Source: Candidatus Vogelbacteria bacterium (GTDB taxonomy: Bacteria > Patescibacteriota > Minisyncoccia > Phycocordibacterales > XYD1-FULL-46-19). From it: DNA of 64,000 nt. The notes beneath the pieces were generated by a model that did not search any database, was not told the origin of the DNA, and worked only from the letters and a program-made list of their open reading frames with translations. Every line of letters starts with the position of its first letter. The first letter of the stretch is position 1. Location of the stretch: NCBI GenBank assembly GCA_021414225.1, contig JAIOOX010000002.1, positions 236,597 to 300,596 on the forward strand. The letters are read 5' to 3'. Position numbers and translations under genes: made by a program. This document shows, piece by piece, positions 32,697-53,279 of this stretch.

Positions 32697-32741
32697 ACCT
32701 ACTATTTTATACCTAAATTAATAATATAAAAAGAAGTAGTT

Positions 32742-32772
32742 CAGCCTTTTTACAGGCGCGCTTTTGTGACCC
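32742..32772 (+). repeat. direct repeat DR-A (32 bp, 2 mismatches to DR-B at 36236-36267)
   Basis: CAGCCTTTTTACAGGCGCGCTTTTGTGACCC here versus CAGCCTTTTTAAAGGCGCGCTTTTGTGAGCCC at 36236. They are in the same orientation and bracket a ~3.5-kb segment. Confidence 0.6.
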
Positions 32773-32881
32773 TAATTAGACGGAACTGGGACCAACTTAC
32801 CAGAGAACTGGTTGGGTGGTATGGGTTATTGAGGGAGTTTGGAGGTGTGAAGGATTCTAAATGTAACAGCTTAAGATACCA

Positions 32882-32910
32882 TTGACTAAATAGATATTAT
32901 TGTATATAAT
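32882..32910 (+). promoter_or_regulatory. perfect-consensus sigma70 promoter (TTGACT-17-TATAAT) for GC-rich gene 32900-33286
   Basis: TTGACT at 32882-32887, a 17-nt spacer and TATAAT at 32905-32910. If the TSS is just downstream, translation probably starts at the internal Met (MGTIYCLMNHG) rather than at the ORF-track start. Confidence 0.5.
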
Positions 32911-33811: not shown

Positions 33812-33818
33812 AGATAGA

Positions 33819-36029
33819 TTAAATATTATAGGTTGCATAATGGTCTTTATCAACACTTTTTATCACTTCAAAGAAATTTTTAATTCTTTGTGAACTTGCC
33901 TGCAAGACAGTTACATCATATTTATCAAACCCTAAAAATTCATGTGAACCATGATTTATAAATCGATACATCACTTTCTCTTCTTGAGCGACTTCTTGTT
34001 CTATAACATCCTTGTCTGCGGGATTTGAGTTGTCTAGTCTATATTTTTTGTATTTGGCGTACAGCTGAGCAAGTTTGCTTTTCAGGTCGCCGTGTCCATA
34101 CTTAAAGTGTAGAAATGTTTCCAAAGCTCGTCTGAGTAAGTTTGCGGCCAAAATAGCATCGTCTAAGTCTATACTGTCCTTCACTTCATTCAATTTTGTT
34201 ATTGAATATAAATAGTCAGATCTATATTTTTTAAGGTTGTCATCCAACTCTTGAATTGTTGAGCCGGTATTCTTTAGTGAGATTTGAAAAAATTTAACTA
34301 AATCGTCTCTAATTTTTCCGTCTTTTCTGTAACTTTGGAGAAGGTGGCCAAAAATATCTAAATTGTGAGAAAGAATGAAATATTGTCTGTCAGGACGACT
34401 TTCAATTTCTCCCGATAGTATTGCAAACACCTGAAAAAGTGAGTCAGAATCAAGACTTGAAACAGGATCATCAATGACTATAACGGAATTCTTATCAATC
34501 TGATTATCTTCATCATTGATACTTAAAAGAAAATATGCCAAAGCTAAGAAGTTTCTCTCTCCCTCACTCAAGGAACTGAGTTCACACTTAGCACCATCAC
34601 GTTTGAGCACATAACCAACTTCTCCATCTGAATCATCCAAAGATATTTCTTTATATGGGAAAGTCGATTTGAGTAGTCTGTTTATTCTATCTGCAGGAAT
34701 TTGAACATTTTTAGCCACCTTTTTAAGCTCTTTTAAATCTTCTTCAATTAGTTTTATATCTCCTTCGTGCTTTGACTTTTCTGCTTGACAGTCTTCATAC
34801 TCCTTCTTCTTTGAGGTGTATTTTATATATGCCCTTGCGACATAATCTTTTTCGATACTCCAAGCAATTGAACCAACGTCGAAAGTTTCTTCTTCGACAA
34901 AAAGATCATCAAAGGTTATTTTTTCGACTATTTTTTTTATGTCTTTTCTCTTTTTTTCCACTCTAGATCGTAATGTGAGAAATAGAGTCTCTAAGGTTTC
35001 CTTTTTAGTAACGTAAAAACTCTCGCATATTCCAATCTCACTTATTGCGCTCTCAGTTTTTGCACTTATTCCATCCAAGGCGTTACTGAGTTCCATTACA
35101 TCTTCAGAAAAATGTTTCAATAACTCGTCTTCGTTGGTAATTTCTGACTCACAAAAAAGACAGTGGTTTAACTTTTCGGTTTCGTTTAGTTTATGAATAC
35201 CAATTCCTTCCCTTACCCATTTTTCTTCTAGACTTCCGTCAGAATATTTTGCTAGTCTTTTTGATTCTTTGTAAACAGGAATAAAAGTGAGGTATTTATT
35301 AATTTTATCTGTTTTTTCAACCACCCAATCATTCCATTTTTTCAAAGTCTTATACTCTCTCTCCTTTACAGATAGATTAGATAAAGTAGATATTCTTTGT
35401 TTTAGTTCAGATTCCTCACTTATAAAGTCATCAACTTGTTTTCCTTCGATGATTGCTTTTGATAGCCACTCTATTCTTTTTTCAAAAGAAGATTTGATAT
35501 AAGAATTATATAAACCATTACTTTCTACCACAGGATCTTTCCTTAAATGTCCAATTCCACTTATTTTTCGTATGTTTTCAGAAACTTCTTTTGATATGTC
35601 ATCGTACTCGTTCTTGCAGGCCTTTAGTTTACTTAGCTTTTCCTTTGCACCTTCAAGTTCCTTTTCTTTTTTTGAAAAATCAACACCAGCGGAACCAATT
35701 GCTACAACATATGGGAGATGGGTTTGGTCAATTGCCTCTTTTATATAGTCTTCATTAAAAACGCGAATCTTATCAGTGAAACCTGAAAGTTCACTGTGTT
35801 TCTTAGCGCCGGTATCAAATTGAGTAGTAAATTGTGCACCGTTAATTTTATCTTCAGAATTAATTATCCCTTTTTCATATGACCTAATTATTCTAGAAAC
35901 TATTGTTTTTCCAGAACCATTCCATCCCAAAATAATATTTACCTTGTCGTGAAAATCTCCAACGGTCGCATCCCAGATGAAGTTCTTAAATGCACCACAT
36001 TTGATATTTTGGATTTTCTTTATTTTCAC
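33819..36029 (-). CDS. RloC/PrrC-like ABC-type ATPase (AAA_13-like) with coiled-coil CxxC hook and C-terminal candidate anticodon-nuclease motif
   Basis: An N-terminal P-loop (ILGWNGSGKTIVSRI) is followed by a long coiled coil containing HCLFCESE (CxxC, Rad50/RloC-like zinc hook). The ABC signature LSEGERNFLALAYFL, Walker B/D-loop VIVIDDPVSSLDSDS and an H-loop (FILSHN) follow. The C-terminal ~170 aa contains LLRRALETFLHFKYGH...FINHGSHEF, an R-x3-E...H arrangement like the PrrC/RloC ACNase triad. Confidence 0.6.
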   Translation of the reverse strand: MKIKKIQNIKCGAFKNFIWDATVGDFHDKVNIILGWNGSGKTIVSRIIRSYEKGIINSEDKINGAQFTTQFDTGAKKHSELSGFTDKIRVFNEDYIKEAIDQTHLPYVVAIGSAGVDFSKKEKELEGAKEKLSKLKACKNEYDDISKEVSENIRKISGIGHLRKDPVVESNGLYNSYIKSSFEKRIEWLSKAIIEGKQVDDFISEESELKQRISTLSNLSVKEREYKTLKKWNDWVVEKTDKINKYLTFIPVYKESKRLAKYSDGSLEEKWVREGIGIHKLNETEKLNHCLFCESEITNEDELLKHFSEDVMELSNALDGISAKTESAISEIGICESFYVTKKETLETLFLTLRSRVEKKRKDIKKIVEKITFDDLFVEEETFDVGSIAWSIEKDYVARAYIKYTSKKKEYEDCQAEKSKHEGDIKLIEEDLKELKKVAKNVQIPADRINRLLKSTFPYKEISLDDSDGEVGYVLKRDGAKCELSSLSEGERNFLALAYFLLSINDEDNQIDKNSVIVIDDPVSSLDSDSLFQVFAILSGEIESRPDRQYFILSHNLDIFGHLLQSYRKDGKIRDDLVKFFQISLKNTGSTIQELDDNLKKYRSDYLYSITKLNEVKDSIDLDDAILAANLLRRALETFLHFKYGHGDLKSKLAQLYAKYKKYRLDNSNPADKDVIEQEVAQEEKVMYRFINHGSHEFLGFDKYDVTVLQASSQRIKNFFEVIKSVDKDHYATYNI

Positions 36030-36235
36030 ATTTATATTCTAACAAAAATAACCTCAAATGAAGTATATTTTGCATACTTCTCGTGCTAGCTGTTGTTGGT
36101 GATTTTCTATTTGTTGTGGTCCACAATAATTTGTTTTTCGTCAAAAACAAATTTTCCAGACCCGGCCTCGACTTTTTTGTTGCTACAAAAACATGTCTCC
36201 GGCTTCACAAAAGCGAAAAAGCCTGAGGCAGTCCA

Positions 36236-36267
36236 GCCTTTTTAAAGGCGCGCTTTTGTGAGCCCAT
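36236..36267 (+). repeat. direct repeat DR-B (partner of DR-A); embedded in a larger inverted repeat CACAAAAGCG...CGCTTTTGTG
   Basis: See DR-A. The 10-bp arms CACAAAAGCG (36209-36218) and CGCTTTTGTG (36252-36261) flank it. Confidence 0.6.
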
Positions 36268-36443
36268 TGTACTTTGAATGGAACACCATGAAAAGCACCG
36301 TCCTTAGATGGGAGGAGGTTTTCGGAAGCTTGGGTAATTTGCGAGAATTAGTCCTTACTTAGAGGGATTTTCAAGCTTTCGGAATCATTTGAACTTACCC
36401 AAGTGGTATTAGAACAAGAAAGCACGTATCTATGCTTGATTAC

Positions 36444-36464
36444 GTATACCCCCTAGGGGTATAC
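36444..36464 (+). promoter_or_regulatory. candidate CsoR operator (GC-rich palindrome) overlapping csoR promoter
   Basis: GTATACCCCCTAGGGGTATAC is a perfect 21-bp palindrome 9 nt upstream of the csoR ATG. It resembles known CsoR operators (ATACCC-N-GGGGTAT type). Confidence 0.5.
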
Positions 36465-36472
36465 TAGTAGAT

Positions 36473-36745
36473 ATGAGACAAGATATTAAAACAAAAGCCG
36501 CCCGCCGCTTAAAAATCGTTGAGGGTCAGGTGCGGGGACTACAGAAAATGGTTGAGGAGGAAAAATATTGTATAGACATCATCACCCAAGCTTCTGCTAT
36601 TAAGGAAGCATTGACTGGTGTGGAAGATTTAATACTTGAAAATCACCTCACTACCCACGTTATACATCAAATAAAACACGGTAAGGAGCAACAGGCCGCA
36701 ACCGAAATACTTAAAGTTTATAAGCTAGCCCAACGCAAAAAATAA
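36473..36745 (+). CDS. csoR: CsoR/RcnR-family metal-sensing transcriptional repressor
   Basis: A DUF156 four-helix fold (RLKIVEGQVRGLQKMVEEEKYCIDIITQASAIKEAL) with conserved Cys/His ligand positions (C-x...H-x3-C pattern). Confidence 0.8.
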   Translation: MRQDIKTKAARRLKIVEGQVRGLQKMVEEEKYCIDIITQASAIKEALTGVEDLILENHLTTHVIHQIKHGKEQQAATEILKVYKLAQRKK

Positions 36746-36748
36746 TTT

Positions 36749-37372
36749 ATGTATACATGCCCCATGCACCCAGAAGTAGTGAGCGATAAACCGGGCAAAT
36801 GCCCGAAGTGTCATATGGACCTCGTACCGCAAAACTCAACGCCAAAAGTCCACCATATGACCGACGACAAAGGCCTTGGAAATCTCACGTGGAAAAGCTA
36901 CATGCCCCTTATTGCTATTGGAGCCGTTCTTCTCCTTGCATCTGTTACCATTTCAATTCACGATGCTAATTTAGGTGTCTTTGCAATTGAAAAGAGCATG
37001 TCCTATTTCATGATTGGGTTCTTCCTTACGTTTGCCACTTTCAAACTGATGGACCTACCCGGTTTTGCACACGGGTATCAAACCTATGACCTCTTGGCGA
37101 CAAAAGCGCCGTGGTATGGATATGTCTATCCGTTTATAGAATTATTCTTTGGGCTAGCAATGATACTTATACCGTTCTCTCGTGAACTCTTAGTCGCAGA
37201 GTTCGTTGTAATGGCATTTAGTGGTCTTGGGGTAGCAATCAAAATTGCTAAGAAAGAGGAGTTTATGTGTGCGTGTCTCGGTACGTTCCTAAAAGTTCCT
37301 CTCACGAAAGTAACTTTGATTGAAGATTTTGGAATGGCGGCACTTGCAGGGATAATGTTTTTCTTAATGTAG
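36749..37372 (+). CDS. membrane protein with N-terminal heavy-metal-binding motif (MYTCPMHPE...CPKCHMDL), putative Cu-handling protein
   Basis: The YTCPMHPEV...GKCPKCHM motif is typical of the Cu/Ag-efflux-associated heavy-metal-binding domain. Four TM helices follow (DoxX/MauE-like). It sits directly downstream of csoR. Confidence 0.5.
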   Translation: MYTCPMHPEVVSDKPGKCPKCHMDLVPQNSTPKVHHMTDDKGLGNLTWKSYMPLIAIGAVLLLASVTISIHDANLGVFAIEKSMSYFMIGFFLTFATFKLMDLPGFAHGYQTYDLLATKAPWYGYVYPFIELFFGLAMILIPFSRELLVAEFVVMAFSGLGVAIKIAKKEEFMCACLGTFLKVPLTKVTLIEDFGMAALAGIMFFLM

Positions 37373-37373
37373 T

Positions 37374-37745
37374 ATGCAATTTCTAAAACAAACAATTTTA
37401 ACTCTCGCACTCGTTGCCTTTGTAGGAATGGCGGGTTTTGGAATGTTTGCAATGACCGGACATCACCACGAGCCGGGGTGTCCATTCATGCCGGGAGAGC
37501 AAGCAATATGCGAGATGAATATCTTTGACCATATTTCCGCTTGGCAAAGTGCGTTTACAGGAGTTTTGCCGTCCATTTTTATACTTGTTCTTATAGCCGC
37601 TTTATTCTTTGTACATTGGTTTAACTACGACAAACCGCCCGACTTGCGAGGCAAGGTTGGTCCTAGGAGTAGTCCCGGTTTAAACAGACCTAATCTATAC
37701 CAAGAACTATTCTCTAGCGGCATACTTAACCCAAAAGCACCCTAG
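37374..37745 (+). CDS. small membrane protein with His/Cys/Met-rich segment
   Basis: GHHHEPGCPFMPGEQAICEM lies between two TM helices, inside the copper cluster. Confidence 0.35.
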   Translation: MQFLKQTILTLALVAFVGMAGFGMFAMTGHHHEPGCPFMPGEQAICEMNIFDHISAWQSAFTGVLPSIFILVLIAALFFVHWFNYDKPPDLRGKVGPRSSPGLNRPNLYQELFSSGILNPKAP

Positions 37746-37783
37746 CCACTTGTAATCTCTCTTATTAATTAATCTTAAAATAC

Positions 37784-38203
37784 ATGCAAAAAAATACAGG
37801 AATTATTATCGCAATTGTTACTCTCATTGTAGGTCTCGGACTTGGTTATGTCGTAGGTACAAACAAAGCTCCTACGGCCCCACAAAGCGCCGCAGGGGGT
37901 CATATGATGCCTGACGGCTCAATGATGGGTAATGGCGGTGGCTCTATGAGCATGGCCGAAATGATGGCTTCAATGAACGCTGAACTGAACGGTAAGACAG
38001 GCGACGAGTTCGATAAGGCATTTATCAGTGAAATGATAATGCACCATCAGGGGGCGGTAGAGATGGCGCAATTGGCTTTGAAGAACGCTAAGCACGCCGA
38101 GATTAAAACTCTGGCAAACGCAATTATCTCTGCACAAAATAAAGAAATTGCAGATATGAAAGCGTGGCAAGAAGCATGGTATGGGAGCGAGACCAACAAC
38201 TAA
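37784..38203 (+). CDS. DUF305 family protein with Met-rich N-terminal segment (copper-resistance associated)
   Basis: DUF305 blocks (FDKAFISEMIMHHQGAVEMAQLAL; KTLANAIISAQNKEIADMKAWQ) follow an MMPDGSMMGNGGGSMSMAEMMASM Met-rich motif of the kind seen in Cu(I)-binding periplasmic proteins. Confidence 0.7.
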   Translation: MQKNTGIIIAIVTLIVGLGLGYVVGTNKAPTAPQSAAGGHMMPDGSMMGNGGGSMSMAEMMASMNAELNGKTGDEFDKAFISEMIMHHQGAVEMAQLALKNAKHAEIKTLANAIISAQNKEIADMKAWQEAWYGSETNN

Positions 38204-38276
38204 TTAAAAGTAGATAAGGTAAAAATGGCCCTGCAAATTGCGGGGTCATTTTGTTTATTGGGCTAATCCGAGAACA

Positions 38277-39272
38277 CTAAAGCGATGGGTGTTGCCCGTC
38301 TGGCATATCTAATCCCATTTCTCGGACGTAATCGCGGAGTTTTCGATTTTTATGAACGATATCTTTTTCAAACTTATCAATTTTTTCTATCAAGCGATTA
38401 TCAGTTGCCGGATTGGCAATGGCCCTTGCTTCAACAAGAAGTTTATTTGCTCGACGAAAACGCTGGAATGAGGGCATTTTTGTCGCAAGGTTGTAAATAG
38501 TATGTGCTTGTTCCGATGGCTTATTCGCAAGTTTGAACTCTACAATTGCTTTCTCAAAATACTGAATACATTTGTCGCGAGACAGGTTAATTTTTTTGCG
38601 CTCTTCGCGACGATAAAGATAAAGGTCTAGGTTCCACCGACGAACGAAATGTGTATTTGCAATCTTGGCTTTAAATTTTCCGCCTTTCTGAAAATCGAGT
38701 TTATCAGTCAGATATTTGTGGCTGTATACATCTCCAATCGTGGAGAATGCATGACCTCGAAACTCGTGGTCCAGTCCCTGTTCTGCTCTTTCAATAACAA
38801 GTGCAAGGGTCGTGTCTGCCTCACGTTCAAGCTCTTTACGCTTTTCGCCTAACGCTTCATATTCTTTCTTATCTTTCTCGGTCGAAAAACCTATCCATCC
38901 AAAGACCTCTGAAGCAAGCATCAAGTTTTTTTGCCTGTAGATTGCATCAGATAATTTAAGTCCAAGAAAGAAACATTTTTTACCCAACAGGTAGCTTTGT
39001 ACACTTTCGTTTCCCGTCCGCTTAGCAATTTCTATCCCCTCATTTGCGACAGCGAGTAGTTTGTCTCCCTCGGTGACATGGTCTAAAACTCCTAGCATTG
39101 CAAGGAGTACATTAATCCGAACAGAGGGGTCTTGCGTTGTTATTGTCTCAAGCAAGCTTCTCGCTTCATCATATTCGCCGAGGTTATACAGCTCGACTGC
39201 TTTTTTCAGTTTATTTTGGTCTGGCATAGTATTCACGTTGTCGAAATCGCGCGATACGAGCTGGAATTTCAT
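38277..39272 (-). CDS. hypothetical protein with N-terminal TPR-like helical repeat; overlaps upstream DUF4238 gene by 62 nt
   Basis: A 331-aa ORF (...AVELYNLGEYDEARSLLETIT...) with no recognisable catalytic motif. It is co-directional with and overlaps the DUF4238 gene in a different frame. Confidence 0.4.
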   Translation of the reverse strand: MKFQLVSRDFDNVNTMPDQNKLKKAVELYNLGEYDEARSLLETITTQDPSVRINVLLAMLGVLDHVTEGDKLLAVANEGIEIAKRTGNESVQSYLLGKKCFFLGLKLSDAIYRQKNLMLASEVFGWIGFSTEKDKKEYEALGEKRKELEREADTTLALVIERAEQGLDHEFRGHAFSTIGDVYSHKYLTDKLDFQKGGKFKAKIANTHFVRRWNLDLYLYRREERKKINLSRDKCIQYFEKAIVEFKLANKPSEQAHTIYNLATKMPSFQRFRRANKLLVEARAIANPATDNRLIEKIDKFEKDIVHKNRKLRDYVREMGLDMPDGQHPSL

Positions 39273-40128
39273 GCCTTAAAAAGCGTAGTAGGAAAACGGG
39301 GTCAAGTGGCAATCTTCGGAACCAGCGCCTCTTCAACTTTGGCGAGTTTGCAATGAAGTATTGATGTGAGTATCCGTAGACCATTCGATTGTCATTGTGC
39401 ACCATATCTTCGGTAGCAAACAAATATCCACGAACATTGTTTATCCAACTGAAACAAACAGAGATTTCAGGTGAGAGTGGCATTCGCACTTCGACCCCTC
39501 TCTGTCCAAACGCAGGAGGGAAAAAACGTTGAAATTGCATCTGACTGTTGAATAGGTATGCGGGTGCATCTGACGTAATGAAAGACACGCGTTTATTTTT
39601 CGTGCAGAGAAATGCAACATTCATTTTAGATAGGATTTCCGCAATTTTAGGGGCCATTTCTATTACGCTCATTTTGTGAGCATCTTTCTTTGCTTCCTCC
39701 CATTCCTTAGAAGATTTTGCCGGTGCTCCGTGCACTGTTTCGAGTTGCTTTGCCCAACCAATCATTTGGTCCATTTGGTTCTCAACGTGTTCTTTCTGCT
39801 TCAAGGTTCGCTGGAGCATGGCGGCGACAAACGCACAAAAAATAGCGTGCTCGTAAGGTGTAAGCGGGAGCTTGTGCTTAATCTTTTTTTCAAATATGTC
39901 GGCATACTCACTTTCAAGTTGCGCCAACGACTTTTCAATAGAATAGTCACCTTGGAATGTATAAACATCTGTTTCCGTGAGCACGCTACGGATATTCTGC
40001 CTTTTGCCTCGCTTACTTTTACGCTCAAAAATCCAAACACACGGCCCGAAGTTGCTCGGTACTTTTGGGTCTACAAACTGCTTTAAATAACATTTCGGAA
40101 TGGTGTGCTGGTTCTTCGGGTTTGACAT
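39211..40128 (-). CDS. DUF4238 family protein (Rst_DUF4238-like anti-phage candidate)
   Basis: The N-terminal hallmark H-T-I-P-x-x-Y-L-x-x-F (NQHTIPKCYLKQF) and an internal FITSDAP block are characteristic of DUF4238. Confidence 0.6.
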   Translation of the reverse strand: MSNPKNQHTIPKCYLKQFVDPKVPSNFGPCVWIFERKSKRGKRQNIRSVLTETDVYTFQGDYSIEKSLAQLESEYADIFEKKIKHKLPLTPYEHAIFCAFVAAMLQRTLKQKEHVENQMDQMIGWAKQLETVHGAPAKSSKEWEEAKKDAHKMSVIEMAPKIAEILSKMNVAFLCTKNKRVSFITSDAPAYLFNSQMQFQRFFPPAFGQRGVEVRMPLSPEISVCFSWINNVRGYLFATEDMVHNDNRMVYGYSHQYFIANSPKLKRRWFRRLPLDPVFLLRFLRHEIPARIARFRQREYYARPK

Positions 40129-40183
40129 TGTCTCTATATCATAGGGTATTTGCAGAATAATAGATATTTGGCGTTAATTGGAG

Positions 40184-40320
40184 TTAGGCATTTTCAAAAA
40201 ACCTATATCTTTCAATGTATTTTCGACTTTTACGATTTTCTAAAGCCAATAAATCAAGGGTTTTGCATAAATAAAGAGATTTTAAGGTTAGGCATTTTTA
40301 CAAAACCTATATTCTGCAAG
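40184..40320. repeat. two ~30-bp imperfect direct repeats (40184-40216 and 40288-40320) in divergent intergenic region
   Basis: TTAGGCATTTTCAAAAAACCTATATCTTTCAATG versus TTAGGCATTTTTACAAAACCTATATTCTGCAAGC, 104 bp apart. They may be regulator binding sites or iterons. Confidence 0.4.
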
Positions 40321-40371
40321 CTCTTTTAGGAAAGATGCTTTTTCTAACCGTAAGAAAATGGTATAGTAATC

Positions 40372-40496
40372 ATGCGTCCCACAGTAGTCGAATAATGTAC
40401 GAGGTCTTTTGCTTCCTATGGAAGCCCAATTGCGGGCTGAAAGGGGGGCATTCGACCGCCACAATTGGTTGCCTCGTGCAATTCAGTACTGTGGGA
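40372..40496 (+). ncRNA. candidate structured non-coding RNA of unknown class (multi-helix, closed by a 12-bp long-range helix)
   Basis: P1 is CGTCCCACAGTA (40372-40383) paired with TACTGTGGGACG (40485-40496). P2 is GTACGAGG paired with CCTCGTGC, including a G-U that favours the plus strand. P3 is the hairpin GCTTCC-tat-GGAAGC. P4 is CCAATTG(CGG)...(CCG)CCACAATTGG enclosing a purine-rich CUGAAAGGGGGG loop. Only short ORFs without coding character overlap it. Confidence 0.35.
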
Positions 40497-40576
40497 CGCC
40501 GGCTCCGAGTGTCTCCCTTTTTGTATTGTCGAACAGAAAAGGGGTTGGGCTGATTACCCACCTAGTTTTATAAATT

Positions 40577-40831
40577 ATGCTCGTAGTAATTATTGTTCTG
40601 CTCTTACTACTTCTTGCAATCGCCGCCCCTGTGCAAATAATGGCGAACAAAAAGAAGTTGAAGCAAATGGACACGCTAATTGAAGCGTTCGAGGCACAAA
40701 GCTTCGAGACGCCGGAGGCAAAAGAAAATGCCAAGCGTGTGTTAAAGAAAAAGCTCGTTGGATTGAAAGCAAAGATACTTGCTGACAAGAAATCAACGGA
40801 AATCGCGGACGACAAACTCAATATTCTTTAA
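40577..40831 (+). CDS. small hypothetical membrane-anchored Lys-rich protein
   Basis: An 84-aa ORF with an N-terminal TM (LVVIIVLLLLLLAIAA) and a K/E-rich tail. Confidence 0.3.
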   Translation: MLVVIIVLLLLLLAIAAPVQIMANKKKLKQMDTLIEAFEAQSFETPEAKENAKRVLKKKLVGLKAKILADKKSTEIADDKLNIL

Positions 40832-40856
40832 GCTTAGAATAAGCTAGAATTAGAGA

Positions 40857-41525
40857 ATGATAGCGTCCCATAGTCAAAACAAGACCCTTAATCGTCTTGC
40901 AAAAATCTTAGAGTTTGTAGAGACGCAATACAGGTCACACGCGGACAAGGAAACATTCTTTTTGGGTGCCAGTGAGATTTTCCGCTTCGACCCACTTCTA
41001 AGCGATATGGATTTGCTAAAAATGGGTTTTGAGAAAATCACTGACGACACAGGGGGAAATGTAAAGATTGAGTTTCGGCAAGGATTACCCGAACGAAACA
41101 CAGCTGACCCGACCCATGTTAGTTACGAACTTTATGTTTGGTTCTATGTTGAGGACCAAAATAAGTTCAGGGACTATCAAAGCTCTGTGAGGTCAAGAAT
41201 TGAGAGAGAAACCAAGGCGGTCCAATTCATTCTCGACAGTCAGGGCTTCTTCTACCCAGAGGGTACGGGGCCAGAGAATAGGCACTCACTCAAAAGAAAT
41301 AGCAACCGTTACCAGTTGCTTTACTTGTTAGCTAAGGAAAACAGATACATTGCAACAAAGGAACTTGCGGAAAAGCTGAATGTCTCGGCTCCAATAGTGA
41401 GAAAAAGGATAGGTGAGATTAGAAACATTATCGCCAAAAAGTGGGAGTTGTCGCGTGAAGCATTGTTTGAAAGTGACAATGCTTCCGGTTACCGAGTAAC
41501 GAATGTCACTCTCCAAGAAAGCTAA
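40857..41525 (+). CDS. hypothetical protein with C-terminal winged-helix/HTH DNA-binding domain
   Basis: The C-terminus NRYIATKELAEKLNVSAPIVRKRIGEIRNII is HTH-like (DeoR/MarR-type recognition helix). The N-terminal domain is unknown. It lies upstream of the recombinase. Confidence 0.4.
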   Translation: MIASHSQNKTLNRLAKILEFVETQYRSHADKETFFLGASEIFRFDPLLSDMDLLKMGFEKITDDTGGNVKIEFRQGLPERNTADPTHVSYELYVWFYVEDQNKFRDYQSSVRSRIERETKAVQFILDSQGFFYPEGTGPENRHSLKRNSNRYQLLYLLAKENRYIATKELAEKLNVSAPIVRKRIGEIRNIIAKKWELSREALFESDNASGYRVTNVTLQES

Positions 41526-41668
41526 AGAGGTATACCTCACCGAAACTACTACGGCTATAGCTGTTAACAACTTCGCAGAGAACTAAGCAAACAAGGGATT
41601 TTAGGTTTTCTCGTTCCGTACGCACGAGGGATTGCGGAGGTACGGGGTGGCTTCAATAGAGTTAGGGC

Positions 41669-41866
41669 ATGGTATCGTTGCCCGATTTTAAAAAAGCACT
41701 TGGACCTCTTGGCGACAAACTCACAGAAAAAGAGATTGAGCGTCTCAATATTCTTTCAGCTCAACTTGCTGGTTCTCTTTTCAATATGTGGAGCCGAAAA
41801 CTAAAAGAGAGTAGGCAGAATGAGAAACCAATAATTTATGGAAACGACCAAATACGCAATAATTGA
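41669..41866 (+). CDS. small hypothetical protein overlapping recombinase start (possible directionality factor)
   Basis: A 65-aa ORF ending 29 nt inside the recombinase ORF. It has no known domain. Confidence 0.25.
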   Translation: MVSLPDFKKALGPLGDKLTEKEIERLNILSAQLAGSLFNMWSRKLKESRQNEKPIIYGNDQIRNN

Positions 41867-43547
41867 CTGTCGCGTTAGTGACCCGCAACAGTTGAAAGGT
41901 GGAAGCTTGGAAGACCAAGAGGTTATTGGTCGTGCAACAGCAATGCGCTACAACGCAACAGTTGCGCATGTTTTTAGAAAACCACATTCAGCAACAACTA
42001 CAGAAAGAGATGATTTGGATGAAGTCATAGATTTTATTAAGAAATATCCTCATCAAATTCATTACTATATTTTTAAATGCATTGACCGATTTACCCGTGC
42101 CGGCTATCCCGAATACGAAAGAAGAAAAGCAGAATTAGAAAAACTAGGAGTTCAAATTATTGACTCCTACGGCGTAATTCAGCCGATACAAAACACACTC
42201 GACCACCTTGGTCAAAAATATAAATGGAGCATGTATTCTCCAAGTGAAATTGCTGAAATGATTTCGGCATATCAAGGAAAAGCAGAAGCAAGAGAGATTT
42301 TAACTCGAATGGTAGGTGCCGAAATCCGTCTTGTGCAAGAGGGGTTTGCTGTAAGACGCGCACCTGATGGATTACATAACAAGCGTATTTTTATTAATGG
42401 AAAAGATAGGGTCATTAGAGAAGCCGGAGAAAAAGCTCATTATTTTCAAAAGATGTATGAACTCCGAGCAGATGGTATTGATGATACGCAAATCGTCAAC
42501 ATTTTAAATGCCACAGGTTTCAAAACAAATATCTATACACGGTGGGATAGGAGTGACCCAGAACATCCTCGAAAAATTGGAACCAGAGGCGGTAAGGTTC
42601 TTACTGTAAAGCAGATGCAACGATATTTACTCCAAACAGAGTATGCCGGTGTAAGTTGTGAGAAGTGGAATAAACACAAGCCGGTCAGAACGCAGTACTT
42701 TGACGGCATTGTTTCTATAGACACTTTCAATCGAGCCAATCGTGGAAAAGTTTACATAAAAGTATCAGAGGGTGACGAGATTGAAGTGCTCTACAACTAC
42801 TCTCCTTGGGGCCGTGTAAAGCGTCTAAGAGACAATCCGATGTACCCATGGAAATGTATAGCGTGTCCTTTCTGCAATAAATCAATGCTCGGTAGTCCGT
42901 CTACTGGAAAGTCGGGTGCTAAGTTCCATGGGTATCATTGTGGTGGTTCAAAATCAGGCGACAGAGCACATGAATATTTCCGTCTTGATAAGAAAACTTT
43001 TGAGAGTAATGTGAAAAATTACTTAGACAGTTTGAAATTCGAGGATGGATTTTTAGCAGGATTGGAATTGCACCTACTTAGCGAATATCGAGAAAGAGAA
43101 AAAGAAGTTGTACTCGAATCTTCTGCAATAAGCCGAACGGTATCTGATTTAAAAGCAGAGTTGGCCCAAAAGTTGGAAGCATTCGGTTTTGCTGAAAGTC
43201 CAATCACTAGGAAAATGATTGAACAGCAAATTGCTGAACTGGATGAACAGATAAAGGGAGCAGAGAGCCAACGAATGGAAATTGAAGTAAATGAGAAGAG
43301 TATCCGTGTCTTTGTACGCTATGCAAAATACGTAATGGAACACCCGGCGGAAATCCTTACAGAAGCTTGTGATTTACAGGGTCGCCGTGCTCTTTTGGGT
43401 CTGTTCTTTGAACAAACCCCGACCTATAACGAAATACTTAATGGAACACCAAAATTAACGGCTCTTTTCAAGCTTTCTGAAGAGTTTAAGGGTAATAAAA
43501 CCCAACTGGTGACCCTACGGGGAATCGAACCCCGATTTAAGCCTTGA
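41838..43547 (+). CDS. large serine recombinase (phage-integrase type resolvase/invertase family)
   Basis: An N-terminal resolvase catalytic domain (YAIIDCRVSDPQQ...) is followed by a recombinase domain, a zinc ribbon (CIACPFCNKSMLGS...HGYHCGG) and a C-terminal coiled coil. The last 41 nt are antisense to tRNA-Glu. Confidence 0.85.
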   Translation: METTKYAIIDCRVSDPQQLKGGSLEDQEVIGRATAMRYNATVAHVFRKPHSATTTERDDLDEVIDFIKKYPHQIHYYIFKCIDRFTRAGYPEYERRKAELEKLGVQIIDSYGVIQPIQNTLDHLGQKYKWSMYSPSEIAEMISAYQGKAEAREILTRMVGAEIRLVQEGFAVRRAPDGLHNKRIFINGKDRVIREAGEKAHYFQKMYELRADGIDDTQIVNILNATGFKTNIYTRWDRSDPEHPRKIGTRGGKVLTVKQMQRYLLQTEYAGVSCEKWNKHKPVRTQYFDGIVSIDTFNRANRGKVYIKVSEGDEIEVLYNYSPWGRVKRLRDNPMYPWKCIACPFCNKSMLGSPSTGKSGAKFHGYHCGGSKSGDRAHEYFRLDKKTFESNVKNYLDSLKFEDGFLAGLELHLLSEYREREKEVVLESSAISRTVSDLKAELAQKLEAFGFAESPITRKMIEQQIAELDEQIKGAESQRMEIEVNEKSIRVFVRYAKYVMEHPAEILTEACDLQGRRALLGLFFEQTPTYNEILNGTPKLTALFKLSEEFKGNKTQLVTLRGIEPRFKP

Positions 43548-43581
43548 GAAGGCTCCGTCCTAACCGTTAGACGATAGGGCC
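43507..43581 (-). tRNA. tRNA-Glu (anticodon CUC)
   Basis: Reverse complement: GGCCCTA-TC-GTCT-AACGGTTA-GGAC-G-GAGCC-TTCTCAA-GGCTT-AAAT-CGGGG-TTCGATT-CCCCG-TAGGGTC-A-CCA. It folds into a cloverleaf with a 7-bp acceptor stem, GTTCGATTC T-loop, anticodon CTC and encoded CCA. Confidence 0.8.
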
Positions 43582-43718: not shown

Positions 43719-44207
43719 TTGTATTACAAAGCCAACCTCGTTACCGGCCAGGTAGAGCCCATCGGGCGCGATCACCAGAGCGTCTGGGATTACCCTGGAG
43801 TCAAGGGCAACGGCCAGCACTTCCAGTTGCCCGGGCACGCCCTGGTCGAGTGGACTGGCGATGATCGCATGAAGCTCTGGCATCCCGAAACCGACCAAAC
43901 CAGCGGCCATGTCGACATTTGGTACGAACACGAGCGCCGCGACGGCAAGAACGGTATCCGGATCGCAAATTACGGCGATCACGAACTGACCTTTTCGTCA
44001 GAAGGGCAGCTGAAGTACAGCTGGCCGTCCGGAGGCTGGAGTTTGATTCGCGTCATCGACGCAGTCGAGTCCCATCTCCAAGAAACGCTTGGTGGCAACC
44101 AACTGCATCTTCGCATGTGGATCGAGCTCAACTTCTACCCGGCCGGCGCGCCGAGCCTGAAGGAGTTGCAGGAAATCCAGCAGCGAAACGAGCAGGCCGC
44201 TGCCTAA
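43719..44207 (+). CDS. hypothetical protein, GC-rich gene
   Basis: A 162-aa ORF that is clearly GC-richer than the flanking AT-rich DNA (MYYKANLVTGQVEPIGRDHQSVWDYPGVKGNGQHFQLPGH...). Its own promoter and a GC-rich terminator bracket it. Confidence 0.4.
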   Translation: MYYKANLVTGQVEPIGRDHQSVWDYPGVKGNGQHFQLPGHALVEWTGDDRMKLWHPETDQTSGHVDIWYEHERRDGKNGIRIANYGDHELTFSSEGQLKYSWPSGGWSLIRVIDAVESHLQETLGGNQLHLRMWIELNFYPAGAPSLKELQEIQQRNEQAAA

Positions 44208-44238
44208 GTCCAACATCGACTTCACCAGCCAACCACAC

Positions 44239-44290
44239 ACCCCGCCCAGCGACACGAGTCGCCGGGCGGGGTAAATTGTTTCTATTTTTT
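44239..44290 (+). terminator. intrinsic terminator
   Basis: CCCCGCCC-agcgacacgagtcgcc-GGGCGGGG followed by a T-rich run (TAAATTGTTTCTATTTTTTT). Confidence 0.5.
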
Positions 44291-44296
44291 TAAAAC

Positions 44297-44650
44297 CTAT
44301 TTAGCTGGTAGGGCTAGAGTGGTGGAGTTTATTATTTTATTAGTTGATGGACGATAAATAATCAACTTTTGTGACTGAATGAAGACCAAAATCTTGTCAC
44401 CATTTTTGGTGCCAGCAAAGAAAGGTTCATTCATTATTTTAGTTTCATCCACAATCGTAGCCACAGCTGGTATTTCAGCTGGCAATTCCATAATCAAACT
44501 AACTCGTTCAACCAGATCGGTCGCTTCTTTGGCGATTAAAGCCTCAGCATTATTGACGTCTTGCTTGGAAGAACCAAAGTAGTATCCCCCACCAATCAAG
44601 ATCAGGATTGCAACCACCACAATAATTATTTTTTTATTTTTTGGACTCAT
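44297..44650 (-). CDS. small hypothetical membrane protein
   Basis: A 117-aa ORF with an N-terminal TM (KIIIVVVAILILIGGGYYF). Confidence 0.35.
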   Translation of the reverse strand: MSPKNKKIIIVVVAILILIGGGYYFGSSKQDVNNAEALIAKEATDLVERVSLIMELPAEIPAVATIVDETKIMNEPFFAGTKNGDKILVFIQSQKLIIYRPSTNKIINSTTLALPAK

Positions 44651-44731
44651 ATAACAATATTCTTATTAATTTTAATTAATCTAATTTTAACACCTCCCCA
44701 CCAAGACTCAAGCTTGACCAAACACCCCACC

Positions 44732-46471
44732 CTAATCTGGGTTTTCGATCACTTTTATTTTCTCGGCCAAGTATTTCTCAGCTTCATCTAGATTCTCGGT
44801 CATTTCAGCCATGATTTTACTCTCTTCTTTGGTTAATTTACGTTTGGTACTAGCTCTTTCAAGCATCTTCAAGTGACGCTTGGTATCACCCTTAAGAATT
44901 TGGAATACTTTATGGACTTCTTGTTCGGTGTGAACCAAGTCACGTCTTAATTTTCGTTTCAGTGAATTTAATTTTTTGATGCCAAGATAAATCATCAGCA
45001 ACAATAGGAAGAGTAGTACCAAGAAGGTGATCGCGATAGAAATTATTTGGATAGCTCTAGTACCTAGAGACATAACCTCAGATTGTTTGACGGTGATGTA
45101 GACCTTACCTGTTGGCAGACTCTTAGCTCCTGAACCACGAACCGTCTCAGCCCAAACATTCAAGATACCGACTGTTTCTATTGAATCACTACTATAGAAG
45201 AAGATTTTATCTTCGTCTGGTCTCACTAAATAACTTTTAGCTTCTTGATCTTCTGCTTGGAACCATAAGACTATCTCGCCATCAGCATAAGGAGACTTAC
45301 CCCTAATCTCTACCGAAGAGCCTACCTTAACAGCTTCTGGGTAATGTGTAATCTTAGGCGCTTGAACTTCTGGTGAGTCGACTAGGACATCTGTACTGTC
45401 ATAATTTCCAGCTCGGTCATAAACTCGCAATTCTAACTTATAACTACCAGCCGCTAGTGGTGGTAAGTTAAACTTGGTTGGTCCATTAGCAGTGGCTGGA
45501 ACCTCGATCAGTTTATCTTCGTTGTTATAAACTACATAACTCTTAACACCGGACAAAGTGTCCTTTGCCCAAGCTTCCAAAGAAATCAAGTCCTCTTCAG
45601 TCTTCTCAGCCTTAACGGTAATGTTTTCCGGAGCGTTAGTATCAATCTTTATTTTACGACTAGTGATCTTGCCCCAACCAGCCTCATTCTTTAATCGGGC
45701 ATTGAGATAGAAGGTTCCCTCAGTTAGGCCGGTCAGTATTTTTTTCTTAATCGGTGGATCATAAGTGACTGTTGGTAAGGTGCTAGCTGATTTTGCCAAC
45801 ACTAGTTGTACCGCGGTGACACCTGAAGATAATTCCCAACTAAAAGTGCCTTCTGTATTGTTATACCAACTATTTTGATCCGACATATCATCAGAAGTGA
45901 TGACTGGAGCACCAGGTACCGCCCCTTGAGAAACAACCGGTAGTGGAACTGGTGTTGTTGGCACAACTACTGGCGGTGGTACCACTACTGGAGTCACACC
46001 AGTAATCGTTACGGAAGAATCTCTAGTTTGCGATAGTACATTGGTACCATTGCCATCATCAGCCCTGATCGCCGAAGAACCAAAAGAGAGCTTAGCCACC
46101 CCCGCTTTTTTGGCTCTAAAATTTATTCGCAATGAATTACCAGCTTGACCAGAGTAACCAGGTGTTGGTAAACCACCATTGAAGTTAACGGTGCCACTGG
46201 TATTAGAAAAAGTTGGCTGTTCGACCCAAATGTTAAAGATAGAGCCAGTGTTGCTAACCGAATCAACACTGACTAAATCGGTTGGGAAATGAATCGTTCC
46301 TTCAGCACTATTGATAGCAACACCGCCAGTCGAGAGATAAACTGTTCCAGAAAAAGTTCCATTTTCAGCTACCTGGGTCTTATCTAAAATAAAATACATA
46401 TCAGCCGCCCAAACTAAACCAGGGGCTAATATTAATCCTAAAGTTAAAATTAAGTTAATTAATTTCCTCAT
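44732..46471 (-). CDS. large cell-surface protein: signal peptide, beta-rich/Ig-like extracellular region, C-terminal TM anchor and cytoplasmic coiled-coil tail
   Basis: The start was trimmed to the Met giving a signal peptide (MRKLINLILTLGLILAPGLVWA). A P/V-rich linker (PVVVPPPVVVPTTPVPLPVV) and a C-terminal TM (IQIISIAITFLVLLFLLLLMIYLGI) are followed by a K/E-rich tail. Confidence 0.55.
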   Translation of the reverse strand: MRKLINLILTLGLILAPGLVWAADMYFILDKTQVAENGTFSGTVYLSTGGVAINSAEGTIHFPTDLVSVDSVSNTGSIFNIWVEQPTFSNTSGTVNFNGGLPTPGYSGQAGNSLRINFRAKKAGVAKLSFGSSAIRADDGNGTNVLSQTRDSSVTITGVTPVVVPPPVVVPTTPVPLPVVSQGAVPGAPVITSDDMSDQNSWYNNTEGTFSWELSSGVTAVQLVLAKSASTLPTVTYDPPIKKKILTGLTEGTFYLNARLKNEAGWGKITSRKIKIDTNAPENITVKAEKTEEDLISLEAWAKDTLSGVKSYVVYNNEDKLIEVPATANGPTKFNLPPLAAGSYKLELRVYDRAGNYDSTDVLVDSPEVQAPKITHYPEAVKVGSSVEIRGKSPYADGEIVLWFQAEDQEAKSYLVRPDEDKIFFYSSDSIETVGILNVWAETVRGSGAKSLPTGKVYITVKQSEVMSLGTRAIQIISIAITFLVLLFLLLLMIYLGIKKLNSLKRKLRRDLVHTEQEVHKVFQILKGDTKRHLKMLERASTKRKLTKEESKIMAEMTENLDEAEKYLAEKIKVIENPD

Positions 46472-53276: not shown

Positions 53277-53279
53277 TCC

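What the first reader, a model, noticed from the sequence alone, without database searches (positions are those of the whole stretch)
41838..43581. Large serine recombinase whose last 41 nt are antisense to tRNA-Glu(CUC); recombinase stop codon lies in the tRNA anticodon position
The LSR ORF ends at 43545-43547. The tRNA-Glu occupies 43507-43581 on the opposite strand, so the recombinase C-terminus (…LVTLRGIEPRFKP) is encoded by the complement of tRNA positions 35-75. An integrase abutting a tRNA 3' half is the classic geometry of a tRNA-targeted integrative element. It is unusual for a serine recombinase, as opposed to a tyrosine one. The element would extend toward lower coordinates, carrying the HTH protein, the DUF4238 pair and the copper module.
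Basis: seen in the sequence. Interest (0 to 1): 0.6.

Follow-up and report, generated by a model that had tools for sequence, protein, structure and literature searches.

The report
tRNA-targeting serine integrase mobile element
A 7.25-kb mobile element is inserted at the very end of a tRNA-Glu gene by a large serine integrase whose attachment site lies inside its own gene, so insertion replaces the enzyme's last helix with a peptide read from the tRNA's opposite strand; hundreds of related, apparently undescribed integrases in Patescibacteria do the same.

Summary
The 569-aa serine recombinase ORF (41838-43547, +) overlaps the 3' 41 nt of tRNA-Glu(CUC) (43507-43581, -), and its TGA is the complement of tRNA positions 35-37.

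It is not chance. In 79 species-representative genomes carrying a homolog, 61 of 80 copies run antisense into a tRNA gene, mostly Glu but also Lys, His, Trp, Arg, Gly, Gln and Tyr.

The cause is an attP site inside the integrase ORF. Free forms, including a 6,107-bp circle assembled independently from two samples, encode about 30 further residues (…QLVSPLYxEWNT…W..VF). In the window this orphaned tail lies at 36258-36362. Joining it to the integrase body restores the native ORF and an attP nearly identical to the circle's.

The two junctions share only GTGA (tRNA positions 71-74), as expected for a serine integrase. A close relative (97.6% identical flank) has the same tRNA with no insertion.

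The element spans 36262-43512. It carries the copper module, the DUF4238 pair, the HTH protein and a conserved small ORF next to the integrase.

A second, older attL-like junction at 32733-32885 remains unexplained. I found no published description. The effect of the tail swap on integrase activity is untested.

The parts
41838..43547 (+). Large serine recombinase gene in its integrated (truncated-tail) form, 569 aa. Bases 41838-43512 are element DNA. Bases 43513-43547 (…TLRGIEPRFKP*) are host tRNA DNA read antisense.
   Evidence: ORF. Pfam Resolvase 25.8 bits against a 23.3 cutoff. PHROG phrog_95 integrase, 1.6e-21. The AF2 model of native homolog P0023 matches full-length serine integrase structures 9y66_A, 9dxd_A and Bxb1 9iu2_A at E about 1e-12.
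43507..43581 (-). tRNA-Glu(CUC), the integration target. It stays intact after insertion. Only nucleotides 3' of about position 72-73 (the CCA end) come from the element.
   Evidence: ARAGORN. Rfam RF00005 61.5 bits. The empty-site relative L091 has the tRNA ending …GGGTCAC|ACGAG with no LSR.
43509..43512 (+). attR core GTGA, the reverse complement of tRNA positions 71-74. The crossover lies inside it. The family minimum is TGA, and the dyad centre suggests the dinucleotide GA.
   Evidence: attL/attR comparison in the window and in 24 tRNA-Glu elements.
36258..36261 (+). attL core GTGA.
   Evidence: Sequence. The base before the core is host-type here (T) and element-type at attR (G). The base after it is element-type here (G) and host-type at attR (C).
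36262..36362 (+). Orphaned native C-terminal coding piece of the integrase ((V)SPLYFEWNTMKSTVLRWEEVFGSLGNLRELVLT*), the element's left end. Joined to 41838-43512 it restores a 590-aa ORF ending …NKTQLVSPLYFEWNT….
   Evidence: tblastn with native tails of homologs, E = 4e-9. Tail HMM 31.1 bits. Reconstruction. The attP of the circular relative L081 is nearly identical.
36150..36261 (.). Host flank downstream of the tRNA (the left arm of attB), including repeat copy D2 (36225-36264).
   Evidence: Aligns at a visually estimated 65-70% identity (not computed) with the sequence directly downstream of the uninterrupted tRNA-Glu in L091.
41669..41866 (+). 65-aa ORF overlapping the LSR start. It is the only gene besides the LSR conserved across elements. 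It is a candidate recombination directionality factor or regulator (inference).
   Evidence: Homologs of 52-99 aa lie 0-47 nt upstream of the LSR in at least 18 of 31 delimited elements, including the circular forms. No Pfam or PHROG hit.
36464..38203 (+). Cargo, metal/copper module: CsoR-type repressor (36464-36745), HMBD+MauE membrane protein (36749-37372), 123-aa ORF (37374-37745), DUF305 (37784-38203).
   Evidence: Pfam PF02583 1.5e-24; PF19335 and PF07291; PF03713 2e-20.
38277..40128 (-). Cargo: 331-aa ORF plus a DUF4238 protein (PADLOC DUF4238-Pers, a candidate defence gene).
   Evidence: Pfam PF14022 1.2e-29. PADLOC PDLC03000 7e-9.
40577..41525 (+). 84-aa ORF and a 222-aa HTH_11 protein (likely the element's regulator, by inference).
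   Evidence: Pfam PF08279 9e-6.
32733..32885 (+). Second, older attL-like junction. Repeat copy D1 (32733-32772, 88% identical to D2) contains GTGA (32766-32769) plus 5 further tRNA-identical bases. It is followed in frame by a degenerate tail-like ORF, FVTLIRRNWDQLTRELVGWYGLL…* (32763-32885).
   Evidence: Repeat (0 of 100 shuffles). Tail similarity is weak: E 0.2-0.7 to P0048/P0051 tails and to a second tail in L008, with the same W-x10-W spacing.

Best explanation
Window 36262-43512 is a 7,251-bp integrative mobile element inserted at the 3' end of the host tRNA-Glu(CUC) gene by its own large serine recombinase (LSR).

In the free circular form the LSR gene is about 590 codons and ends in a linker plus an amphipathic helix (…QLVSPLYFEWNTMKSTVLRWEEVF…). 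The element's attachment site attP lies inside this gene, centred on the codons L-V-S (CTG GTG AGC), about 30 codons before the native stop. The host site attB is centred on the antisense TGA of tRNA positions 71-73 (end of the acceptor stem plus discriminator). Its right arm is the conserved tRNA acceptor/T-arm. Its left arm is the variable sequence downstream of the tRNA.

The crossover occurred within a 3-4-nt shared core, with no long homology. By family membership, the chemistry is inferred to be conservative serine-recombinase exchange at a 2-bp central dinucleotide (TG or GA, GA favoured). This has three consequences:
1. The tRNA stays intact. In this element it gains an encoded CCA.
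2. The LSR body becomes fused to antisense tRNA sequence. It gets a 13-aa host-encoded tail and terminates at the TGA formed by U35-C36-A37.
3. The native tail exon is left 7.25 kb away at attL.

Excision would rebuild both the full-length LSR gene and the native tRNA downstream region.

Shown: anatomy, junctions, an empty site in a relative, a circular form of a relative, and family-wide recurrence. Inferred: the catalytic mechanism; the small upstream ORF as directionality factor; and a regulatory effect of the tail swap and of antisense tRNA read-through on the integrated LSR.
For: - Orphan native tail at 36258-36362 on the same strand. Joining it to the LSR body restores the consensus native C-terminus.
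- attL and attR share only GTGA, with host-type and element-type bases switching exactly at the core.
- Empty site: L091 has a flank 97.6% identical to window 44231-45713, and a tRNA-Glu(CUC) followed directly by non-LSR sequence that aligns with window 36150-36261.
- Free form: L081 and L082 carry the native-tailed homolog P0023. They are circular permutations of one 6,107-bp circle with a 30-nt terminal overlap and 0 mismatches, from two samples. Their attP (AAATCCCAAATGGTGAGCCCATTGTACCTAAAATGGAAC) closely matches the window's reconstructed attP.
- Family-wide: 61 of 80 LSR copies in 79 genomes run antisense into a tRNA. An orphan tail lies 4-11 kb upstream on the same strand of a tRNA-fused LSR in 28 other genome loci (29 delimited elements with the window). 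Of the 120 closest database proteins, 72 have tRNA-type tails and 37 have native tails.
- Cargo differs between elements. Only the LSR and a small upstream ORF are shared.
- LSR identity: Pfam, PHROG and a full-length fold match to serine integrases.
- Target tRNA varies with LSR clade (Glu, Lys, Trp, His…), as expected for site-specific integrases.
Against: - No circular form or empty site was recovered for this exact element and strain. Two metagenome scans found nothing.
- In L091 the tRNA is only 93% identical and its downstream flank about 65-70% (visual estimate), although neighbouring genes are 97.6% identical. The whole tRNA neighbourhood therefore differs between the strains, and the 'empty site' is orthologous in position rather than near-identical.
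- A second attL-like junction with a duplicated host-type arm (32733-32885) is not predicted by a single simple insertion.
- No recombination activity was measured. The central dinucleotide, the directionality factor and any effect of the tail swap are inferences.
- A sister clade in contigs not labelled as Patescibacteria keeps the native tail on long contigs with no adjacent tRNA (L044, L048, L063, L079), so an intragenic attP is not universal in the wider family.
Confidence: 0.88

Rival explanations
1. Classical tRNA-island model. The element carries its own copy of the tRNA 3' half inside the end of the integrase gene. It recombines within a long identity segment, so the last 41 nt of the LSR are element DNA and a displaced tRNA fragment marks the other end.
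For: This is the standard geometry for tyrosine-integrase islands (Islander/TIGER literature, PMC4383910). Native tails of some homologs partly mimic the tRNA-encoded peptide, for example P0106 …EVTLRGIKWNT.
Against: The window holds no second copy of 12 nt or more of the tRNA 3' half. attL and attR share only GTGA. Free and circular forms encode a non-tRNA tail. Across elements the right-hand arm is tRNA sequence, while element-type sequence ends at the core.
Confidence: 0.03
2. Fixed, non-mobile arrangement. A domesticated or decaying recombinase gene simply abuts a tRNA gene in compact Patescibacteria genomes, and the overlap is inherited vertically.
For: The same juxtaposition is seen in many genomes. 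Patescibacteria genomes are compact.
Against: Cargo differs in every genome and only the LSR and a small ORF are shared. Orphan tails delimit units of 4-11 kb. There is an empty site in a 97.6%-identical strain and a circular free form. The LSR ORFs are intact with catalytic residues conserved.
Confidence: 0.03
3. The unit that last moved was a larger composite, 32770-43512 (about 10.7 kb). It would be bounded by the outer junction D1|tail_old and carry the AAA_13 defence gene plus a piece of a former host's tRNA flank (D2). It would have formed when an old attL recombined with the current attR in an earlier host.
For: The outer junction has the host-type arm, GTGA plus 5 more tRNA-identical bases, and a tail-like ORF in frame. 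The inner flank is only about 65-70% identical (visual estimate) to L091's flank although nearby genes are 97.6% identical. The region between D1 and D2 is cargo-like: PDC-S06 candidate defence ATPase and a beta-flower protein. L008, the closest relative, also has a second weak tail 1.3 kb outside its main attL.
Against: tail_old matches family tails only weakly (E 0.2-0.7). The D1 context is not like L091's flank either. In L008 the second tail is not preceded by a repeat of the host arm. No composite circle was observed.
Confidence: 0.15
4. Artefact. A sequencing or assembly error removes the true LSR stop or mis-joins the LSR to a tRNA.
For: The source is a metagenome-assembled genome.
Against: An independent Logan assembly of SRR15633504 gives the same arrangement. 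Dozens of independent assemblies show the same reading frame running into tRNAs.
Confidence: 0.01

Closest known systems
Myxophage Mx8 integrase (IntP/IntX)
   Same: attP lies within the integrase coding sequence, so integration creates a recombinant gene with a new 3' end and an altered integrase (PMC6070905). From my own recollection, not checked here, Mx8's two neighbouring attB sites lie at tRNA-Asp genes. The two attB sites themselves are stated in PMC6070905 and recall the two host-type arms seen here.
   Different: Mx8 Int is a tyrosine recombinase on a roughly 50-kb phage. Here the enzyme is a large serine recombinase, with a 3-4-nt core instead of an extended identity segment, and the elements are 4-11 kb with no phage genes.
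SSV1-type archaeal integrases
   Same: The att site lies inside the int gene and the gene is disrupted on integration (PMC5861418). That they target tRNA genes is from my own knowledge.
   Different: They are tyrosine recombinases of archaeal viruses, and the int gene is split into two large parts and inactivated. Here only the last 30 or so codons are exchanged, and the catalytic and DNA-binding domains stay in one ORF.
Canonical phage large serine integrases (Bxb1, phiC31, TP901-1, A118 group)
   Same: Domain order by predicted fold: N-terminal catalytic domain, recombinase domain, zinc ribbon and coiled coil. Short att sites have minimal attP/attB identity around a central dinucleotide.
   Different: From established knowledge, their attP sites lie outside the int ORF and their attB sites are usually in protein-coding genes or intergenic DNA. 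This family has an extra helical C-terminal domain plus the swappable terminal helix (residues 489-585 of P0023). Its attB is the tRNA 3' end, with a left arm that shows almost no conservation.
Computationally predicted serine-integrase islands at t(m)RNA genes (TIGER) and LSR-bearing tycheposons
   Same: These are serine integrases associated with tRNA-adjacent islands. TIGER found 14 of 297 S-Int elements at t(m)RNA genes (PMC7192596). 27 of 937 Prochlorococcus elements carry an LSR (bioRxiv 10.1101/2020.12.28.424599).
   Different: [quoted passage not shown] No intragenic attP or tail swap was described. Here tRNA targeting is the rule for a whole clade (582 clusters at 50% identity reach E<=1e-30).

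Membership tests
Large serine recombinase (serine integrase) | N-terminal resolvase-type catalytic domain with the catalytic serine | tested here: met
   Pfam PF00239 25.8 bits against a 23.3 cutoff, residues 8-108. The family profile hits the TP901-1 integrase catalytic domain 3bvp at 1.2e-8. C11-R12-V13-S14 are nearly invariant, and R57, D83, R84 and R87 are invariant in 40 sequences.
Large serine recombinase (serine integrase) | Recombinase domain following the long alpha-E helix | tested here: met
   Pfam PF07508 is below cutoff for the window protein (16.5 against 21.1), but it is precomputed as a hit in many homologs. The AF2 model (pLDDT 86.6) aligns over 506-587 columns with full-length integrases 9y66_A, 9dxd_A and 9iu2_A, and with phiC31 NTD+RD 4bqq at 1e-6.
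Large serine recombinase (serine integrase) | Zinc-ribbon domain with an embedded coiled coil | tested here: met
   C343, C346, C368 and H367/H378 are invariant. A beta-rich segment at 308-387 is followed by long helices at 408-485 in the model. PF13408 is precomputed in P0046 and P0073. This rests on prediction only.
Large serine recombinase (serine integrase) | Recombination between dissimilar attP and attB at a short central core, without long homology | tested here: met
   attL and attR share GTGA in the window and a minimum of TGA across 24 tRNA-Glu elements. The arms switch type exactly at the core. This is in-silico evidence only.
Large serine recombinase (serine integrase) | Catalysis through a phosphoserine intermediate and subunit rotation; directionality set by an RDF | not testable with these tools
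   Needs biochemistry. A conserved small ORF upstream of the LSR is only a candidate RDF.
tRNA-targeted integrative genetic element (genomic island) | Integrase gene at the element end adjacent to an intact tRNA gene | tested here: met
tRNA-targeted integrative genetic element (genomic island) | A displaced tRNA fragment (long direct repeat) marks the distal end | tested here: not met
   There is no copy of 12 nt or more. The distal end is marked by a 4-nt core plus the orphan integrase tail instead.
tRNA-targeted integrative genetic element (genomic island) | An uninterrupted target exists in related genomes | tested here: met
   L091 has tRNA-Glu(CUC) with no LSR, and its flank is homologous to window 36150-36261. 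Caveat: the tRNA region itself has diverged (93%).
tRNA-targeted integrative genetic element (genomic island) | An excised circular form with attP | tested here: inconclusive
   Shown for a relative at 60% protein identity (the 6,107-bp circle L081/L082). Not found for this element.
attP-within-int elements (Mx8 / SSV1 type) | attP inside the integrase ORF, so integration alters the gene | tested here: met
   Reconstruction and the circular attP; tail statistics.
attP-within-int elements (Mx8 / SSV1 type) | The integrase is a tyrosine recombinase | tested here: not met
   It has a serine recombinase fold and domains. The resemblance is in how it works, not in ancestry.
Prophage | Virion structural and packaging genes | tested here: not met
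   PHROGs hits only the integrase and two families of unknown function. Only 2 relatives exist among 2.9 million IMG/VR contigs.
Integrative conjugative or mobilizable element | Relaxase, coupling protein or type IV secretion genes, or an oriT | tested here: not met
   Pfam finds none in the window element. Larger native-tailed relatives do carry TraG/TrwB-like coupling proteins and ArdC (L083, L094, L098). An oriT cannot be assessed.

The most novel reading that the evidence does not exclude
The intragenic attP acts as a built-in state switch. Only the free element makes the full-length integrase with the terminal WNT helix, which would be competent for integration. Once inserted, the element can only make a tail-swapped isoform. 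That gene is also read antisense by transcripts running on from the tRNA promoter, because the tRNA's own terminator has been moved 7 kb away. Directionality and stable maintenance would then be encoded in the recombination product itself, with or without the small upstream ORF. In addition, attB recognition may rest essentially on the tRNA-side half-site. That would explain the unconserved left arm, insertion into an already occupied junction (the L043 tandem), and accretion of successive elements and orphan tails at one tRNA, as seen in the window.
Probability: 0.25. Interest if true: 0.8.

Novelty: new variant of a known kind. Interest (0 to 1): 0.72.

Why it matters
Serine integrases are generally held not to use tRNA genes. 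The one large survey that saw a few cases called them unreported and in need of proof (PMC7192596). Here a whole clade does so as a rule: 582 clusters at 50% identity, mostly from Patescibacteria, a group whose mobile elements are poorly known.

The clade also places attP inside the integrase gene, an arrangement known so far from tyrosine integrases (Mx8, SSV1). This gives a natural system to test three questions:
- whether a C-terminal helix controls the activity or directionality of a serine integrase;
- how an attB with only one conserved half-site is recognised;
- how small elements move defence and metal-resistance genes between ultra-small bacteria.

For annotation, it explains a recurrent 'GIEPRF/GIEPGF' C-terminus and offers a simple rule, the orphan 'EWNT…W..VF' exon, for delimiting these elements. 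Integrases whose natural target is a highly conserved tRNA sequence could also interest genome engineers.

Tried and rejected
1. I searched the window for a second partial tRNA copy with blastn-short. Nothing of 12 nt or more turned up, so I rejected the long-repeat model.

3. I looked for synteny through the right-flank 608-aa protein. L084 and L085 (88% nt) end before any tRNA, and L087 and L088 are rearranged. An exact look-up of the 117-aa flank protein finally gave the empty-site contig L091.

4. Pfam shows it is an AAA_13 ATPase, and the copper module is inside the element.

5. I searched 32760-33560 and 36030-36262 for LSR remnants or other family proteins. None were found.

6. I tried to explain the duplicated host arm (D1/D2) by looking for the same pattern elsewhere. 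L067 has a repeated arm with no tail, L032 has an intact attB copy beside the occupied one, and L008 has a second tail with no repeated arm. No single mechanism fits all of them, so I left it open.

7. A single-sequence PDB search gave no hit. The profile search hit only the catalytic domain. The fold search was needed to see the full LSR architecture.

8. Seven literature searches found no description of this family. This covers the held library only.
Full report
**1. The observation**

The window contains one tRNA gene, tRNA-Glu(CUC) at 43507-43581 on the minus strand. Rfam RF00005 scores it at 61.5 bits. The ORF at 41838-43547 (+, 569 aa) ends …NKTQLVTLRGIEPRFKP.

Read from the sequence, the two overlap by 41 nt (43507-43547). 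The TGA stop (43545-43547) is the reverse complement of tRNA positions 35-37, which are the last two anticodon bases plus A37.

**2. The protein is a large serine recombinase**

- Pfam Resolvase is above its cutoff, and Recombinase is just below.
- PHROG phrog_95 'integrase' scores 1.6e-21.
- A profile of 40 homologs hits the TP901-1 integrase catalytic domain.
- An AlphaFold model of the native-tailed homolog P0023 (pLDDT 86.6) shows, in order: catalytic domain, long helix E, recombinase domain, a beta-rich zinc ribbon with invariant Cys/His, a coiled coil, an additional helical domain (489-556), a linker (557-567) and a terminal helix (568-585).
- Foldseek aligns that model over its full length with cryo-EM structures of serine integrases (9y66_A, 9dxd_A, Bxb1 9iu2_A; E about 1e-12).

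**3. The overlap is a property of a whole family**

The 120 closest database proteins are all about 570-600 aa and mostly come from Patescibacteria. The window's own protein is labelled Candidatus Vogelbacteria.

Of these, 72 end in peptides that are antisense translations of a tRNA 3' half: LVTLRGIEPRFxP, LVTLPGIEPGFxA, LVTLQRIEL, GFEPATISLKGCCSTS. Another 37 end in a different, conserved tail: LVSPLSLEWNTxExxxxxWxxVF….

A scan of one genome per species returned 79 loci holding 80 LSR copies:
- 55 stop inside a tRNA gene on the opposite strand.
- 6 read through one.
- 10 lie at a contig end.
- 5 have the native tail.

The tRNAs are Glu-UUC (27), Glu-CUC (13-14), Lys, His, Trp, Arg, Gly, Gln and Tyr. 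The target changes with LSR clade.

A search of 1.84 billion cluster representatives finds 582 clusters at E<=1e-30. Many of their tails are tRNA-antisense peptides in other frames, such as GIRT…, DSNP… and ESNR….

**4. Why: attP lies inside the gene**

Searching the window with native tails finds one strong match on the same strand, 7.25 kb upstream, at 36258-36362: VSPLYFEWNTMKSTVLRWEEVFGSLGNLRELVLT* (E = 4e-9; tail HMM 31.1 bits).

- The distal junction reads …GGCGCGCTTTT-GTGA-GCCCATTGTAC….
- The tRNA-proximal junction reads …AAAACCCAACTG-GTGA-CCCTACGGGG….
- They share only GTGA, which is the reverse complement of tRNA positions 71-74.
- The bases on either side switch between host type and element type exactly at that core.

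Joining 41838-43512 to 36262-36362 gives a 590-aa ORF ending …NKTQLVSPLYFEWNT…, which is the native consensus.

A tail HMM finds an orphan tail on the LSR strand in about 30 of the other genome loci. In 28 of them it lies 4.1-10.9 kb upstream of a tRNA-fused LSR, which with the window gives 29 delimited elements. For 24 tRNA-Glu elements the minimal shared core is TGA. The attP arms are conserved because they are coding sequence. The attB right arm is the tRNA. The attB left arm is unconserved apart from TTTG next to the core. The imperfect dyad of attP centres on GA, so I favour GA as the crossover dinucleotide. This is an inference.

**5. Free form and empty site**

Free form. The native-tailed homolog P0023 sits on two 6,137-bp contigs from different samples. 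They are circular permutations of one 6,107-bp circle, with a 30-nt terminal overlap and 0 mismatches. Its attP (…AAATCCCAAATGGTGAGCCCATTGTACCTAAAATGGAAC…) closely matches the window's reconstructed attP. Other native-tailed members sit on larger contigs with TraG/TrwB-like coupling proteins and ArdC, which look like unintegrated conjugative-type elements.

Empty site. Contig L091 shares 97.6% nucleotide identity with window 44231-45713. It has a tRNA-Glu(CUC) followed directly by …GGGTCAC|ACGAGTTTAAAG… and no LSR. That downstream flank aligns with window 36150-36261, at what I estimate by eye to be about 65-70% identity.

So 36262-43512 (7,251 bp) is an insertion relative to a close relative, and the tRNA body is host DNA.

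Caveat: the tRNA is only 93% identical between the two strains, and synteny breaks at 44230. The whole tRNA neighbourhood is therefore a variable region.

**6. Content of the element**

- Orphan tail piece.
- CsoR-type repressor, HMBD/MauE membrane protein, a 123-aa ORF and DUF305.
- A 331-aa ORF and a DUF4238 protein (PADLOC DUF4238-Pers).
- An 84-aa ORF and an HTH_11 protein.
- A 65-aa ORF overlapping the LSR start.
- The LSR.

Across 31 delimited elements only the LSR (31 of 31) and the small upstream ORF (at least 18 of 31) are shared. Everything else is variable cargo. No phage structural, replication or conjugation genes were recognised in this element.

**7. Consequences and inferred regulation**

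The tRNA remains intact. The reconstructed attB and L091 both lack an encoded CCA, and this element supplies one (TGG at 43507-43509). Several relatives do not supply it.

The integrated LSR loses the terminal helix and gains 13 host-encoded residues. The stop in the anticodon loop follows automatically from the reading frame and U35-C36-A37 of tRNA-Glu.

A promoter-like site lies upstream of the tRNA (43679-43650, -). No terminator-like site follows on that strand until about 42240. tRNA read-through could therefore be antisense to the LSR. This point, and any functional effect of the tail swap, are hypotheses.

**8. What remains unexplained**

A 40-nt copy of the host-type arm (32733-32772, 88% identical to 36225-36264) is followed by GTGA plus five more tRNA-identical bases. 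After that comes an in-frame, tail-like ORF: FVTLIRRNWDQLTRELVGWYGLL… (32763-32885; weak similarity, same W-x10-W spacing).

Between the two copies lie a 128-aa ORF, a beta-flower protein and an AAA_13 ATPase (PADLOC PDC-S06).

Comparable patterns in other loci:
- L008, the closest relative, has a similar second tail.
- L067 repeats its host arm, and L032 keeps an intact attB copy beside the occupied one.
- L043 has two elements in tandem, with the upstream LSR carrying an intact native-type tail.

Candidate explanations are an older decayed occupant, two former attB sites, or a composite that last moved as a 10.7-kb unit. I could not discriminate among them.

**9. Comparison with known systems and novelty**

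Functionally the closest parallel is phage Mx8, where attP lies within int and integration creates a new 3' end and an altered integrase (PMC6070905). SSV1-type integrases, whose gene is interrupted by its own att site, are the next closest (PMC5861418). Both are tyrosine recombinases.

[quoted passage not shown] A minority of Prochlorococcus tycheposons carry an LSR (bioRxiv 10.1101/2020.12.28.424599).

Searches combining serine recombinase or integrase with tRNA, Patescibacteria or CPR found no description of this family.

I classify it as a new variant of a known kind. It is a site-specific integrative element with a bona fide LSR, but with systematic tRNA targeting, an intragenic attP with C-terminal exchange, and an attB conserved on only one side.

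**10. Verdict**

Confidence in the integrative-element model with an intragenic attP is about 0.88. Confidence that the tail swap is regulatory is about 0.25. Interest is 0.72.

Noticed in passing
window 43719-44207 (+), boundary at 44230: A 162-aa ORF at 58% GC sits in a roughly 40% GC genome and has no Pfam, PHROG or PADLOC hit. It lies between the tRNA's 5' side and a conserved 117-aa gene. Synteny with close relatives breaks exactly at 44230, and each relative has a different GC-rich ORF in that slot (227 aa in L084, 209 aa in L091).
   Followed up: partly
window 40374-40499, with repeats at 40183-40223 / 40287-40327: A structure of about 125 nt is closed by a perfect 13-bp stem (GCGTCCCACAGTA…TACTGTGGGACGC). 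RNA fold z is -5.25 on the plus strand and -4.0 on the minus strand, with no Rfam match. It lies in the element's 450-nt intergenic region beside a 41-nt direct repeat. It is not conserved in the other loci held. It could be a small RNA, an origin or a regulatory site.
   Followed up: partly
window 33512-36029 (-): An AAA_13 ATPase with a DUF4145 C-terminus (PADLOC candidate defence PDC-S06, 5e-82) overlaps a 4-fold beta-flower protein gene. The pair sits between the two attL-like junctions.
   Followed up: partly
L032 11600-11890: An occupied but degenerate tRNA copy at the LSR end is followed 100 nt later by an intact attB. That attB has the same 38-nt left arm (100% identical to the one at attL) joined to a complete tRNA-Ile(UAU). 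The att region is therefore locally duplicated.
   Followed up: partly
L043 2115-3902 and 10001-11734: Two family elements lie in tandem. The upstream LSR has an intact native-type tail that doubles as the left end of the downstream element, which sits at tRNA-Lys. This suggests insertion into an already occupied junction.
   Followed up: partly
L044, L048, L063, L079: A sister clade (35-42% identity) keeps the native tail on long contigs labelled Verrucomicrobiia, Alphaproteobacteria, Gemmatimonadaceae and Saprospiraceae, with no adjacent tRNA. Either these use a different attP position or the contigs are mis-binned.
   Followed up: no
L083, L094-L096, L098: Native-tailed family members sit on contigs of 13-28 kb together with TraG/TrwB-like coupling proteins, ArdC, radical-SAM genes and restriction-type genes. 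The same integrase family therefore also serves larger, possibly conjugative, elements.
   Followed up: no
window 50628-58547 (+): Three consecutive very large ORFs (882, 808 and 945 aa) lie in a stretch of raised GC (45-52%). They were not examined.
   Followed up: no
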